A stretch of 64,000 nucleotides of DNA from Octopus sinensis (Eukaryota), in contig NC_043002.1 of the NCBI RefSeq assembly GCF_006345805.1, positions 39,122,001 through 39,186,000 of the forward strand, written 5' to 3'. A program made the position numbers and the translations under genes. The notes beneath the pieces are model-generated. The model worked only from the letters and a program-made list of their open reading frames with translations. It made no database searches and was not told the origin of the DNA. This document shows positions 1,505 through 61,729 of this stretch, one piece after another (positions within the stretch are counted from its first letter, which is position 1; each line of letters opens with the position of its first letter).

Positions 1505-1727
1505 AGGGAGAATTCACAAAAAAAACAAAAGACGAAGACAGGTGGTGTAGAAAACAAACAGATGTATTAGTATAACGCCCAGGAATTTTTTAAAAAGTCG
1601 TTAATATTTCGAGCCTACGCTCTTCCACAGAAAGGAACACAGAAAGAGACAAGGAGAGAACAGGAAAGAAAAAAATGTGTGTAGTGGCTACCGATCTATC
1701 AAGGCGAATGCCGGACAGAAGGGTTCA
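1505..1727 (-). mobile_element. Microsatellite-flanked element with hammerhead-like fold, family H1 copy 1
   Basis: Reverse complement of the copies at 9830 and 18200. CCUUU-CUGUGGAA-GAGC(GUAG)GCUC-GAAA-UAUU at 1635-1600. Flanked by (TG)n and (CA)n/(TA)n. Confidence 0.55.
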
Positions 1728-2039
1728 CACACACACACATATATGTATAATATATATATATATATATTATATATATATATATATATATATATATATATAT
1801 ATATATATAATATTATATATAAAGAAGCCACCATCGCATGACAACTGATGTTGGTGTGTTTACATCCCCGTACTTAGCTGTTCGGAAAAAAAACGATAAA
1901 ATAAGCACTAGGCTTACAAAGAATAAGTCCTGGGGTGGATTCATTCAAGTAAAGGCAGTGCTGCAGCATGGTCGCAGTCAAATGACTGAAACAAGTAACA
2001 GAATAAAAGAATATATATATATTATATATATATATATAT

Positions 2040-3505
2040 TCTTTTATTCTGTTACTTGTTTCAGTCATATATATATATATATATATATATATTCTTTTAT
2101 TCTGTTACTTACTTGTTCAGTCATTTGACTGCGACCATGCTGCAGCACTGCCTTTACTTGAATGAATCCACCCCAGGACTTATTCTTTGTAAGCCTAGTG
2201 CTTATTTTATCGGTCTTTTTTCCGAACAGCTAAGTTACGGGGATGTAAACACACCAACATCAGTTGTCATGCGATGGTGGCTCTTTATATATAATATATA
2301 TATATATATATCTATATATTATATATATATATATATATATATACATATATTGTGTGCGTGTGAAACCCTTCTGTCCGGCATTCGCCTGATAGATCGGTAT
2401 ATATATATATATATTCTTTTATTCTGTTACTTGTTTCAGTCATTTGACTGCGACCATGCTGCAGCACTGCCTTTACTTGAATGAATCACCCAGGACTTAT
2501 TCTTTGTAAGCCTAGTGCTTATTTTATCGGTCTTTTTTCCGAACAGCTAAGTTACGGGGATGTAAAACACCAACATCAGTTGTCATGCGATGGTGGCTTC
2601 TTTATATATATATATATATATATATATATAATATATATATATATATATATATATATACATATATGTGTGTGTGTGTGAAACCCTTCTGTCCGGCATCGCC
2701 TTGATAGATCGGTATATATATATAATAATTCTTTTATTCTGTTACTTGTTTCAGTCATTTGACTGCGACCATGCTGCAGCACTGCCTTTACTTGAATGAA
2801 TCCACCCCAGGACTTATTCTTTGTAAGCCTAGTGCTTATTTTATCGGTCTTTTTTCCGAACAGCTAAGTTACGGGGATGTAAACACACCAACATCAGTTG
2901 TCATTCGATGGTGGCTTCTTTATATATATATATATATATATATATATATATACATATATGTGTGTGTGTGTGAAACCCTTCTGTCCGGCATTCGCCTTGA
3001 TAGATCGGTATATATATATATATATTCTTTTATTCTGTTACTTGTTTCAGTCATTTGACTGCGACCATGCTGCAGCACTGCCTTTACTTGAATGAATCCA
3101 CCCCAGGACTTATTCTTTGTAGCTAGTGCTTATTTTATCGGTCTTTTTTCCGAACAGACTAAGTTACGGGGATGTAAACACACCAACATCAGTTGTCATT
3201 CGATGGTGGCTTCTTAATATATTATATATATATATTATATATATACATATATGTGTGTGTGTGTGAAACCCTTGTCCGGCATTCGCCTTGATAGATCGGT
3301 ATAATATATATATATTCTTTTATTCTGTTACTTGTTTCAGTCATTTGACTGCGACCATGCTGCAGCACTGCCTTTACTTGAATGAATCCACCCCAGGACT
3401 TATTCTTTGTAAGCCTAGTGCTTATTTTATCGGTCTTTTTTCCGAACAGCTAAGTTACGGGGATGTAAACACACCAACATCAGTTGTCATGCGATGGTGG
3501 CTTCT
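2040..3505 (-). repeat. Tandem array of five ~300-bp units, inverted relative to 1691-2011
   Basis: Unit = SINE 3' half + (TA)n(TG)n + GAAACCCTTCTGTCCGGCATTCGCCTTGATAGATCGGTA. Units start near 2093, 2414, 2729, 3024 and 3315; the last runs on into the SINE head (to 3658). Confidence 0.9.
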
Positions 3506-4108
3506 TTCAGTTTCCGTCTACCAAATCCAATCACATGGCTTTGGTCGGCCCGAGACTATAGTAGAAGACATTTGCGCAAGGTGCTACACAGTGGGACTGA
3601 AGCCGGAGGCATGTGGTTAGGAACCAAGCTTCTTACCACACGGCCACGCCTGCGCCTATGGAATTTTGGGTGGGAGGACTTATATGCTAACATCTTTGTT
3701 CAACAGAAATACGATATTTTCTTTCTTCGTTTCATGAAATTTTAGCCAAAACGCAAATATGTATTAATTATTAATAGGGCATAAATCAAAAGATTAAACG
3801 CATTGTATCTAGGTATGAACGATTAAACACGTGTGCGTGTGTGTTGTGTGTGTGTGTGTGTGTGTGTGTGTGTGTGTGTGTGTTTGTGTTGAAAACGTAA
3901 AAATTATAAGATTTCAATGTTCGATATGAGTTAAAAAGAGAACTACTAAGTAGTGACAATAATGATCAGAATGAAACAGAAGTAAAGCTCAAAAAGTGTC
4001 AGAATTACCTAAACAACAAAAGGGAAAATTTAAGCAAGGCTTGAAGCAGAAGTATTAAGAATTACAAACTCCATCAATTTTTACGTGAACAATGTTTTCA
4101 TATATATA

Positions 4109-4326
4109 CGAAGAGGTGGTGAAAAGTTTTTGGCTTTGGGTAAAAGGAAATATAGGAGGATCGGTTAATTACGATTTAATTCAACTTATTTCCATCTCAG
4201 ATTCACACACTTATTGCCACGGTCCTTCAGTTTTTTCTAAGCCCTGTAAAAGAACTCTGAAGGTTGGGTCTCCAGCCAGGCCTTTTGTGATACCCTTAAA
4301 GCCAGGGACTTTTCAGCAACCCCTCG
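4109..4326. mobile_element. Mariner-type MITE
   Basis: Imperfect TIRs CGAAGAGGTGGTGAAAAGTTTTTGGCTTT / AAAGCCAGGGACTTTTCAGCAACCCCTCG, with TA on the left side. Confidence 0.6.
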
Positions 4327-4800
4327 TGTGTATGTATGTGTGTATATATATATATATATATATATATATATATATATATATATATATATACACACGATAG
4401 AACTCGAGGTAGATAATGCAATAAATAATACTGTGATAAACTCCATGGGATAAAAGTCCTTGAGTGCTTATAGGGATTGAACGTATATCTTTCTTAAGCA
4501 TGACAGAATTTCTACCACTGAACCAAAGCAATCCTTCAAATTTCTCTATCCATTCTACATGGTCTGTTTTTACCAGCGAAAATTACATGTTGCATACGTC
4601 ATAACAATTTAGAAACTTCGAGCGAACGTAAAATAATTCGTTTTTAAGGGTGGGACTCAAAACAGATAAAGTTGTGAATAATAGACTGTAAACATTGTGC
4701 TCGGAAACCTTTTGTTAAGAAAAAGTTGAAAGCTATTCGCGGGATTCAAACCCACATCTATAAATGTAAAAGAGTTCTAATATTAAACCAAAGCAATGTA

Positions 4801-59974: not shown

Positions 59975-60048
59975 GTTGTCATTATAGTACTCGGAGTTTC
60001 GAATGTCGAAACGAAGGCCTTACATTCTCATCGGCTATTAATGGCAAC
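59975..60048 (-). ncRNA. Type I hammerhead-like motif (U4C core variant)
   Basis: GUUGCCAUUAAUAG-CCGAUGA-GAAUGU..ACAUUC-GAAA-CUCCGA-GUA^CUAUAAUGACAAC. Stem I is ~13 positions with one bulge and one mismatch; stem II is 6 bp. Confidence 0.65.
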
Positions 60049-60214
60049 AGATGCTATAAAAATTAACGTCGAATAAAAGAGAAGTTACTCTAATAGGTAG
60101 AAAAAAAAGAAAAAGATTAAAAAAATACACGCAACCATATTCACACAATACATAGACATAAACCTCCTGCGTTCATAACCTCTACATACGTACACACTCA
60201 CACAAACATATATC

Positions 60215-60530
60215 TCTCGTGGAAACGGCATCCAACTAAAGTACAAATATATGGGAAACTACCACCTGTATCATCTCTTGTGCAAGGTAGAAGAGTCCAG
60301 TTTGGTGGGCATTGTTGTAGAGCTGAAAACGAGGTAATTTCTACTCTTCTCCTCTGGAAGCCATCTGCTCGCGATACCAGAGGGCACACACTCTCCTACC
60401 CTAATGTAATCTTCAAGGATACAGGCATCCAGCAACAGGACCTCCGTAATGCTATGATGGACCGTGAAGTCTGGCGTAACATAGTAAATTCCATTGTCTC
60501 GACCACGGTCGAACAATGATGATGGTGATA
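60215..60530 (+). mobile_element. RTE-clade LINE 3' end
   Basis: IYGKLPPVSSLVQGRRVQFGGHCCRAENEVISTLLLWKP..DTGIQQQDLRNAMMDREVWR..*, followed by a (TGA)n tail. Confidence 0.85.
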
Positions 60531-60724
60531 TATATATATATTTGAGTAGAAAAATGAAATATCTTTTTATGGATAATTCGTTTAACCGATACCTGGGTAG
60601 CAAATTCACATCAGAAATAATACGGTTGAAGTTACGTGCCTAGGGCAGAGACTACGTGTTTTCGTGTGGAAATTTGTGCGTATTTTTATAAAATTTATGA
60701 ATAAATGAAAGAATGACAAATTAA

Positions 60725-60835
60725 CAAATTTCCTTTATTTTCGACATATGTTTCGAAGGCTGCATATTCCTAATTGTGAAGGAATAAGGAGTACATTATG
60801 CCGCTTTCTCATCAGGAAAAACAAGGAATTTATGT
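60725..60835 (-). ncRNA. Type I hammerhead ribozyme with canonical core, inside a (TA)n-flanked element (~60541-60890)
   Basis: Minus strand: UUCCUUGUUUUUC-CUGAUGA-GAAAGCGGCAUA...UAUGCAGCCUUC-GAAA-CAUAU-GUC^GAAAAUAAAGGAA. Stem I, extended stem II, palindromic stem III (ACAUAUGU) and a GUC triplet are all present. Predicted cleavage is between 60743 and 60742. Confidence 0.8.
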
Positions 60836-61729
60836 CAACATCAAGATTCACAAAAACTTTTAGATGACTGCTCTCACGGAGCGCATAGCGATATATATAT
60901 ATATACATACATATATATATATATATATATATAATATATATATATATATATATATATATATATATATATATGTTAGAAGTATTGAGGGTGATATATATAT
61001 ATATATATATATTATAACACAACCCACACACAATCTCACAGAATCACCACCAGACGTTAAAATACGAAAGATAGCTTAGGCAGCACATACGAACCACAAA
61101 CACCGGCGAACAAGAGAACTCGCGTTACACATATCGTGCCCCGATAAAATAAACAGATGCAGTACTCAAAAGAAACGTATGTAACAATGAAACAAACTTT
61201 ACAACAACGTAAAAGAAAAGAAGAAATTCTTTCTTTTTACCCTGCCAAAGCATAATTATAAATACATGCGCACGTGAACACACGGACGCACACATGCATG
61301 CAGACACACACACATATACATGCACACGCACATATATCTATATATACAAACACTCATGCATCTCGAGAGCCCACATGTGCATCTGGTAATGCAGTCGTCA
61401 CTGACATGAAACTTGAAAACACAATGTTACTGCTGATTATGATGATGATGATAATGATGATGATAACGGAGTTGACGATGATAATGATGATGATGATGAC
61501 GTCAACAACGATGACTACGACGACGACGAAATGGCGGGAAGAGGAGCAGGAAGAGAAGTCGAGGAGGAGGAGAAGGAGGATCACTATGACTACGATGATG
61601 ATGATGATGATGATGACGACGACAACGATGACGACGATGATGATGATGATGATGATTGATGGTTGTAGTTGTGGTGATATTGGTGGTGGTGGTGGTAGGT
61701 AGGTAGGGTGAGGTTCCATACTTTGGCAC

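What the first reader, a model, noticed from the sequence alone, without database searches (positions are those of the whole stretch)
1505..60890. A population of microsatellite-anchored mini-elements sharing a minimal hammerhead ribozyme fold
Seen: at least 12 motifs (near 1600, 9890, 18260, 26780, 30390, 30570, 31120, 31210, 47640, 57800/57870, 60010, 60780) in several sequence-distinct families. All read stem I / 7-8 nt core / stem II hairpin / GAAA / short palindromic stem III / triplet / stem I. Each sits in a 100-350 bp ORF-less element touching or near a microsatellite. Known: Penelope-like elements carry minimal type I hammerheads with palindromic helix III that work as dimers, and animal non-LTR retrozymes are short hammerhead-bearing non-autonomous elements. 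Inference: these are several families of Penelope-mobilised, microsatellite-associated elements at about one per 5 kb. I do not know whether they have been described for this organism.
Basis: partly seen in the sequence, partly recalled or inferred. Interest (0 to 1): 0.8.

Follow-up and report, generated by a model that had tools for sequence, protein, structure and literature searches.

The report
Penelope retroelement ends carrying hammerhead ribozymes
These short repeats are the tail ends of Penelope-like jumping genes, which carry a hammerhead-shaped RNA motif and sit mostly against AT repeats; this is a known kind of element, but two very abundant families have unusual catalytic cores whose ability to cut RNA is untested.

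Summary
The 13 motifs are real and belong to eight repeat families (A-H). Seven pass a type I hammerhead descriptor (0.27 expected in shuffles), one passes weakly, and five are decayed. They are not mainly a separate class of mini-element. Walking upstream from longer copies links A and B to RT + GIY-YIG Penelope-like elements (PLEs) with a Neptune/Nematis-type linker, and D, G and H to Hydra-clade PLEs; C, E and F stay unlinked. The window copies are ORF-less 3' ends (pLTRs), 5'-shortened, some head-to-head, usually ending on (TA)n. That is the published picture, including a hammerhead-bearing Hydra element in Octopus. Retrozyme features (tandem monomers, ends at the cleavage site) are absent. 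What may be new: the 3-8 core pair covaries across families (C-G, U-A, G-C); family F fixes G3-C8 (5,932 exact matches genome-wide) and family A fixes U6 (14,501) while only positions 7 and 17 vary. Short F copies share a sharp 5' end with an extra G (13 of 19), hinting at capped transcripts started inside the pLTR. Cleavage is untested, and RNA reads show no cleavage pile-up.

The parts
1505..1725 (-). Family A PLE 3' end; hammerhead from 1630 down to about 1603, U6 core, stem I mismatch (decayed)
   Evidence: family linked to RT+GIY-YIG ORF
9831..10010 (+). Family A PLE 3' end; hammerhead 9890-9917, U6 core, 4-nt palindromic stem III; between (TG)n and (TA)n
18199..18386 (+). Family A PLE 3' end; hammerhead 18262-18289, U6 core
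26629..26860 (+). Family B PLE 3' end; hammerhead 26775-26805, U3-A8 core, G at position 17
   Evidence: long relative L129
30324..30449 (-). Family B PLE 3' end; hammerhead from 30408 down to 30379, decayed (C3-A8, stem II broken)
30471..30606 (-). Family C (A-like stem II); canonical core from 30578 down, stem III broken here, stem I broken in most of the family; no ORF link
30996..31173 (-). Family D Hydra-clade PLE 3' end, left arm of a head-to-head pair; hammerhead 31155 to 31105
31173..31293 (+). Family D, right arm; hammerhead 31203-31245
47597..47800 (-). Family E; hammerhead 47658 to 47629 (G at position 4 here; C or U in the family), with an inverted piece of its own tail at about 47686-47800; no ORF link
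57678..57833 (-). Family F, left arm of a head-to-head pair; core from 57826 down, decayed at positions 8 and 9
57839..57979 (+). Family F, right arm; G3-C8 core 57860-57866, position 17 at 57896, position 13 changed; starts at the family's sharp 5' end
59890..60140 (-). Family G Hydra-type PLE 3' end; hammerhead 60034 to 59988, C at position 4; ends on (TAA)n
60543..60890 (-). Family H Hydra-type PLE 3' end with tail; canonical hammerhead 60815 to 60743, long stem II, 8-nt palindromic stem III

Best explanation
The motifs are hammerhead folds in the 3' ends (pseudo-LTRs) of several Penelope-like retrotransposon families, and the short window copies likely arose when the element's own endonuclease nicked an AT-rich simple repeat and its reverse transcriptase copied only the last 100-350 nt of an uncleaved element RNA. 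Shown: family membership, the link to RT/GIY-YIG ORFs for A, B, D, G and H, fixed 3' ends on (TA)n, variable 5' ends, head-to-head pairs, two alternative 3' ends (short and tailed), and copies that run through the predicted cleavage site. Inferred: target-primed reverse transcription, fold-back or template switching for the inverted pairs, and lone copies being inert because stem III needs a partner RNA or the element's protein. The fold is likely kept by selection only in the copying master elements. For C, E and F the same origin is inferred from anatomy alone.
For: A: 7 of 25 loci fetched with an upstream stretch hold both a sense PLE ORF remnant and the hammerhead end; RT and linker+EN read in L297/L300 (RVT_1 E=0.004, below cut-off). 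B: L129, from the unbiased sample, is a near-complete broken PLE with the B motif 739 nt after the ORF and an inverted copy upstream. D: Hydra-type EN upstream in sense in 9 of 20 loci, 4 of them with a descriptor hit downstream; C-x-C-x5-C linker in L295. H: EN in L244, L225, L224, L228. G: EN in L197 and L208, 62-67% identical to D's. Intact 775-781 aa RT+GIY-YIG frames exist in the genome, and 6 of 20 protein-chosen loci have a sense descriptor hit in the 3' UTR. Simple repeat within 12 nt of the 3' end: A 34/47, D 16/25, H 16/18, G 11/20, B 5/12, E 4/8, F 19/43 and 19/49, against 2.5% for random positions. In A, 0 of 24 constrained non-CpG positions are polymorphic against 30 of 119 flank positions (p=0.004), while positions 7 and 17 have 46% minor alleles; D 1/33 against 22/113 (p=0.03). 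Published: PMC4209133, PMC8557442, PMC11167929, PMC3846280.
Against: C, E and F are not linked to an ORF. For F two conflicting neighbours were seen: a weak Hydra-type EN remnant 1.2-1.4 kb upstream in L414 (E=7e-4) and a Neptune-type ORF cut short 760 nt upstream in L413. The B link rests on one locus, and G's UTR continuity was read by eye. 5' ends are not evenly spread: A peaks 61-70 nt before the core (12 of 38 incidental copies) and F is sharp, which plain random truncation does not predict. The polymorphism test is not significant in F (1/28 against 6/93), and homopolymer indels inflate flank counts. In monomer folding the stem I + II state was within 0.2-1.3 kcal of the minimum only for the two A copies, and 5-20 kcal above it for D, E, G and H, with long loops left unpaired. 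No cleavage was tested.
Confidence: 0.85

Rival explanations
1. Part of the short copies, above all family F, are retrocopies of short capped RNAs that start at a promoter inside the pLTR about 20 nt before stem I and are copied in trans to their very 5' end. This refines the best explanation and does not exclude it.
For: 71 distinct arms in 64 loci taken in genome order: 9 arms (8 loci) extend upstream, 42 start within a few nt of one site, and 20 have no recognisable head. Of 19 short arms that keep the AG before that site, 13 have G in front where long copies have a pyrimidine (3 C, 1 T, 2 A; binomial p=8e-5 at 0.25), with unrelated sequence beyond. An extra 5' G marks capped full-length L1 insertions (PMC11702581, passage). 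Penelope's promoter lies in the 3' pLTR (PMC2377424, passages), and Inr-like motifs occur in rotifer pLTRs (PMC3846280, passages). A, D and E also show 5'-end peaks.
Against: No read-start pile-up in three RNA runs, though such libraries rarely show 5' ends. A's peak lacks the extra G and can be explained by microhomology to (TA)n or (TG)n; D shows it in only about 3 of 30 contexts. The same site also looks like a 3' splice site (branch point, pyrimidines, AG), so a very short spliced exon is an alternative. Copies may share ancestry, which would inflate the p value.
Confidence: 0.4
2. They are self-propagating non-LTR retrozymes: short RNAs that self-cleave, circularise and are retro-inserted by PLE proteins.
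For: Short, ORF-less, type I hammerhead, high copy number. Retrozymes derive from pLTRs (bioRxiv 10.64898/2026.07.22.740005, parts 1-3 of 5 read). Tandem hammerhead arrays with about 480-bp units exist elsewhere in this genome.
Against: No window family was seen as a tandem array of hammerhead-bearing units; copies are single or head-to-head. Ends do not fall at the cleavage site. Five families continue into coding PLEs. In F both main loop-2 variants occur in long and in short copies (read by eye), so short ones look like repeated products of long masters.
Confidence: 0.08
3. The fold is under selection for a non-catalytic role (for example a protein-binding or folding element near the reverse-transcription start), and in the variant families it no longer cleaves.
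For: A fixes U at position 6 (92 of 95 copies; 99 of the first 100 matches); a change at position 6 gives low activity (PMC3088659, section 8). C lost stem I at family level. In the Anolis PLE, core mutants did not affect insertion in vitro and uncleaved RNA was the main template (PMC11167929, parts 1-2). No end pile-up in RNA for F.
Against: The 3-8 pair is Watson-Crick at family level in all eight families while changing identity (C-G in A, C, D, E, G, H; U-A in B, 4 of 8 copies; G-C in F, 100 of 108), and the positions free in A are 7 and 17, as in catalytic hammerheads. The G3-C8 swap partly restores cleavage, and the Anolis ribozyme cleaves with protein help (PMC11167929).
Confidence: 0.3
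4. Chance hairpins in AT-rich, repeat-rich DNA.
For: The descriptor is loose and was tuned on the motifs; 2-6 hits arise per 600 kb of shuffled DNA; no Rfam model reaches its threshold.
Against: 29 hits against 2-6 out of sample. Each motif sits at the same place, in sense, near the fixed 3' end of multi-copy families. Family F, whose window copies the descriptor misses, shows the full layout in about 100 of 108 copies.
Confidence: 0.02

Closest known systems
[quoted passage not shown]
   Same: Short stem I, palindromic stem III, unpaired base before stem II in some families, mostly single motifs ascribed to truncated PLEs, opposite-strand pairs, U3-A8 variant.
   Different: G3-C8, U6 and C4 family cores are not in the parts I read. 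My estimate of about 110,000 intact motifs is well above the 4,000-9,000 quoted for coelacanth and Xenopus, but the descriptors differ.
Hydra-clade PLEs, including Hydra-1_Obim of Octopus bimaculoides (Craig et al. 2021, PMC8557442; section 11, passages, supplement rows)
   Same: C-terminal GIY-YIG, C-x-C-x5-C linker, CxxC near the end, (TA)n insertion, hammerhead near the 3' end; D's RT stretch resembles Hydra-1_Obim by eye.
   Different: D, G and H have other stem II and stem III sequences than the listed Hydra-1_Obim motif, so they are other families.
Neptune/Nematis PLEs
   Same: C-x4-C-x2-C linker before a CCHH-bearing C-terminal GIY-YIG in the A and B parents; microsatellite bias is ascribed to this linker (PMC8557442, passage).
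   Different: No tree was built, so Neptune and Nematis are not separated.
Poseidon PAc of Anolis (Frangieh et al. 2024, PMC11167929; parts 1-2 of 4 read)
   Same: Two alternative 3' ends (short and tailed), AT-rich targets, insertion from uncleaved RNA.
   Different: There G3-C8 is an engineered rescue mutant; here it is the natural state of a family.
Animal non-LTR retrozymes
   Same: Type I hammerhead, no ORF, pLTR ancestry.
   Different: Defined as tandem repeats with a hammerhead in each unit; the window families are single or inverted and several continue into coding PLEs.

Membership tests
EN+ Penelope-like element | RT followed by C-terminal GIY-YIG endonuclease in the parent element | tested here: met
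   A, B and D show RT and EN pieces upstream in sense; G and H show EN only
EN+ Penelope-like element | The same for families C, E and F | tested here: inconclusive
   No firm ORF link in 20 C loci, 25 E loci plus 4 extensions, or 6 extended F loci
EN+ Penelope-like element | Hammerhead in the 3' pLTR, in sense | tested here: met
EN+ Penelope-like element | 5'-shortened and inverted (head-to-head) copies | tested here: met
   D and F pairs in the window; inverted partners in the hit lists; 5'-end spread
EN+ Penelope-like element | Optional 3' tail (two alternative 3' ends) | tested here: met
   F; E and H read by eye
EN+ Penelope-like element | RT phylogeny with reference clades | not tested
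   No reference set was on hand as stored sequences; one search shows 685 relatives of another intact ORF of this genome with RT and GIY-YIG domains
Hydra clade (D, G, H) | C-x-C-x5-C linker, no CCHH, CxxC and CxH near the C-terminus | tested here: met
   L295 for the linker and CxxC; L244 for CxxC and CxH; read by eye
Neptune/Nematis (A, B) | CX2-5CxxC linker plus CCHH in the EN | tested here: met
   L300 and L129; read by eye
Type I hammerhead ribozyme | Three-stem junction with conserved core | tested here: met
   Family-level counts: met for B, D, H; met with a core change for A, E, F, G; stem I not met for C
Type I hammerhead ribozyme | Covariation of paired positions | tested here: met
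   3-8 pair changes C-G / U-A / G-C across families; stems differ in sequence between families; constrained sites less polymorphic in A and D, not significant in F. R-scape not run.
Type I hammerhead ribozyme | Self-cleavage after position 17 | not testable with these tools
   No assay; RNA reads show no end pile-up for F, which is weak
Non-LTR retrozyme | Tandem repeats with a hammerhead in each unit | tested here: not met
   No tandem array at the 13 sites; none noticed in the hit lists
Non-LTR retrozyme | No coding parent continuous with the element | tested here: not met
   A, B, D, G, H continue into ORFs
Non-LTR retrozyme | Circular RNA | not testable with these tools
   No suitable library; no back-joints in the rows shown for the RNA runs (35 rows not shown)

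The most novel reading that the evidence does not exclude
This genome holds about 100,000 natural hammerhead variants in which whole Penelope families have fixed core changes known mainly as laboratory mutants (G3-C8 swap in at least 5,900 copies, U6 in at least 14,500), and the short copies are retrocopies of capped RNAs started inside the pLTR just before the ribozyme. The pLTR would then be its own small transcription unit mobilised in trans, with the ribozyme tuned down so that the template stays whole: a ready-made allelic series for asking what PLE hammerheads are for.
Probability: 0.3. Interest if true: 0.6.

Novelty: new member of a known kind. Interest (0 to 1): 0.35.

Why it matters
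The class is known, so the main value is a catalogue: a large share of small repeats in this genome are PLE ends, and a 2026 repeat annotation of Octopus vulgaris mentions neither hammerheads nor ribozymes in its main text (PMC13282606). The function of PLE hammerheads is an open question. Families with fixed G3-C8, U3-A8, U6 or C4 cores, or a lost stem I, each amplified to thousands of copies, allow a direct comparison of cleavage rate with amplification. The extra-G 5' end, if real, maps the pLTR start site from genome sequence alone.

Tried and rejected
Rfam: no hammerhead family among the 150 of 243 rows shown (dominated by microsatellite-like miRNA models) and none at gathering level in 6 loci. 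PLE proteins against the window: no match. Pfam PF26215 is not in the library. Apparent links that were independent neighbouring insertions and were dropped: E beside the ORFs in L035, L049 and L060; A beside ORFs in L031, L037, L049, L053; G beside the ORF of L201 (no UTR continuity); D in L191. One strand (L040) was mis-set and not used. A spliced-exon reading of F's 5' end was considered: no shared exon sequence lies before the G in the 13 copies, so it is ranked below the cap reading. The extra-G signature was sought in A, C, D, E, G and H and not found clearly. Sequencing runs: no RNA holder listed for window 57660-57980. The lay of three RNA runs of one study (about 6% of each read) and one contig set on a natural F copy gave 1,152-1,533 reads per RNA run, both directions about equal, 84-87% running on into unlike flanks, and no place where many molecules begin or end; this fits passive transcription within host RNAs and says little about cleavage. 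Earlier findings of this scan: none. Lunse et al. 2017, the paper most likely to list natural core variants of PLE hammerheads, is not held and I saw only its citation, so G3-C8 and U6 may be in print there. Searches showed no natural G3-C8 or U6 family and no cap signature for PLEs in what I read of their hits. The supplements of the bioRxiv preprint are closed and those of PMC4209133 were not read; both may list further variants or cephalopod families. No covariance model, R-scape test, tree or structure prediction was run. A homology count of each motif's exact borders was not completed; borders were read from the sequence.
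Full report
Setting. The window lies in a 2.72-Gb animal genome, is 36.5% GC and dense in simple repeats. I take the host to be an octopus; that is an inference from recall of genome size and composition, and no call names it. No PLE protein matches the window.

Observation. The 13 sites fall into eight families: A (1600, 9890, 18260), B (26780, 30390), C (30570), D (31120/31210), E (47640), F (57800/57870), G (60010) and H (60780). 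A type I hammerhead descriptor finds 7 of them at score 17 or more, against 0.27 in 15 block-wise dinucleotide shuffles; its weights were set after seeing the motifs. On 60 stretches of 10 kb at round-number positions it finds 29 against 2-6 in 6 shuffles, about one per 24 kb net, or roughly 110,000 genome-wide by extrapolation. The window is about 2.5 times richer. One further site (26775) scores 16.8 with G at position 17. Five are decayed copies. Rfam models do not detect them.

Families. The first look of the genome search gave 3,471 candidates for A, 2,539 for F, 1,617 for D, 949 for G, 2,836 for H, 556 for E and 467 for C, with 40 scored each; these are not copy numbers. Exact patterns gave 5,932 matches for F (control 0; first 100: 96 G3-C8, 2 C3-C8, 2 G3-G8, 0 C3-G8) and 14,501 for A (control 0; first 100: 99 U6, 1 C6, all four letters at position 7). 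Per-position counts over held copies, which include best hits to the window copies: A U6 in 92 of 95; B U3-A8 in 4 of 8 and C3-A8 in 2; C canonical core but stem I pairs 2 and 4 kept in 4 and 2 of 20; D and H canonical; E C4 in 24 and U4 in 17 of 46; F G3-C8 in 100 of 108; G C4 in 21 of 27. The 3-8 pair thus takes three Watson-Crick forms across families. In A none of 24 constrained non-CpG positions is polymorphic against 30 of 119 in the flanks (p=0.004), while positions 7 and 17 are; D agrees (p=0.03) and F does not reach significance. Stem III segments are self-complementary, with duplex energies of -1.7 to -9.7 kcal; the monomer stem I + II state is close to the minimum only for A.

Parents. 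A GIY-YIG search found 150 scored matches among 5,029 candidates, several in open frames of 775-781 aa with RT followed by GIY-YIG and hundreds of relatives, the named ones mostly from bivalves or their symbiont assemblies. Six of 20 such loci have a sense descriptor hit in the 3' UTR, and seven more show a U3-A8 form by eye; these are other families than the window's. For the window's families I walked upstream. A: 7 of 25 loci hold both an ORF remnant and the hammerhead end, with a C-x4-C-x2-C linker and CCHH. B: L129 is a broken near-complete PLE with the motif 739 nt after the ORF and an inverted copy upstream. D: Hydra-type EN in sense in 9 of 20 loci, with the C-x-C-x5-C linker. H and G: Hydra-type EN. 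C, E and F: no firm link; F extends up to about 840 nt upstream in a few copies, with conflicting neighbours in L413 and L414.

Ends. 3' ends are fixed and followed within 12 nt by a simple repeat, mostly (TA)n, in 39-89% of copies per family against 2.5% for random positions. E, F and H have a short and a tailed 3' end, as described for PLEs (PMC8557442, passages; PMC11167929, parts 1-2). Head-to-head pairs are common. 5' ends range from the ORF to the core, with peaks: A at 61-70 nt before the core in 12 of 38 incidental copies. In F, 71 arms from 64 loci in genome order split into 9 long, 42 starting near one site and 20 without a recognisable head; 13 of the 19 short arms that keep the AG before that site have G in front where long copies have a pyrimidine (p=8e-5). 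An extra G marks capped full-length L1 insertions (PMC11702581, one passage), and Penelope's promoter lies in the 3' pLTR (PMC2377424, passages), so a capped RNA starting inside the pLTR is my preferred reading (0.4). The site also resembles a 3' splice site, and other families lack a clear G. RNA reads cover F in both directions, mostly running on into flanks, with no start or end pile-up.

Mechanism. Most likely (0.85) a PLE protein binds element RNA, nicks (TA)n, starts reverse transcription at one of two sites 3' of the hammerhead and stops or folds back early, leaving a short ORF-less pLTR copy. The template must be uncleaved, since copies run through the site. That agrees with the Anolis element, whose ribozyme needs protein and is dispensable for insertion in vitro (PMC11167929), and with low dimer activity (PMC4209133, parts 1-2). 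The anatomy and the ORF links are shown; the enzymology is inferred from those papers.

Comparison and novelty. Truncated PLE hammerheads, inverted pairs and U3-A8 are in PMC4209133. A Hydra element with a hammerhead and (TA)n preference is listed for Octopus bimaculoides (PMC8557442 supplement). Retrozymes are defined as tandem arrays (bioRxiv 10.64898/2026.07.22.740005, parts 1-3 of 5), which the window families are not. I found no natural G3-C8 or U6 family in searches; G3-C8 appears there as an engineered partial rescue (PMC11167929; PMC8495972, one passage) and a natural C6 variant has low activity (PMC3088659, section 8). Lunse et al. 2017 could not be read and may hold them. Other papers seen: PMC6765202, PMC8967140, PMC6962438 and PMC3846280 (passages), PMC13282606 (part 1 of 3 and passages).

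Verdict. A real feature, new members of a known kind, interest 0.35. The core variants and the extra-G end are the parts worth an experiment.

Noticed in passing
L299 (six copies), L118, L110, L298: Tandem hammerhead-bearing units of about 470-490 bp, 93-99% alike, in L299 in both orientations: retrozyme-like arrays of families not present in the window.
   Followed up: partly
   Followed up: partly
window 2076-3507: Tandem array of about 296-bp units, each holding about 45 nt of family A from upstream of the hammerhead joined to another abundant short repeat; an inverted unit at 1810-2022. No hammerhead in the units.
   Followed up: no
L061-L064, L067: A young PLE family with intact 781-aa frames at several loci, an upstream overlapping frame of up to 479 aa, and a U3-A8 hammerhead whose stem I has a mismatch.
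   Followed up: partly
window 58521-59120 (+): Broken Tc1/mariner-type transposase (HTH_Tnp_Tc3_2, E=2e-7).
   Followed up: partly
window 34225-34554 (-) and 60121-60519 (+): Short frames that look by eye like C-terminal remnants of LINE reverse transcriptases; no Pfam match.
   Followed up: partly
window 18562-18691: Near-perfect 130-nt hairpin of non-simple sequence, 170 nt after the third family A copy.
   Followed up: no
window 19073-19252 and 21825-22005: Inverted pair, 94% alike over 181 nt, 2.6 kb apart.
   Followed up: no
window 35770-36193 and 36725-37147: Direct duplicate of 424 nt, 99.5% alike, amid long simple repeats; recent duplication or assembly artefact.
   Followed up: no
L244 around 330-400 of the upstream flank, L142 8614, L272, L393: A sister family of A with a canonical position 6, C or U at position 4 and a compensatory change in stem I; a natural control for the U6 family.
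   Followed up: partly
window 13045-13258, 41276-41688, 52197-52799, 55608-55851, 61997-62483 and others: Many copies of other short interspersed repeats without a hammerhead.
   Followed up: no
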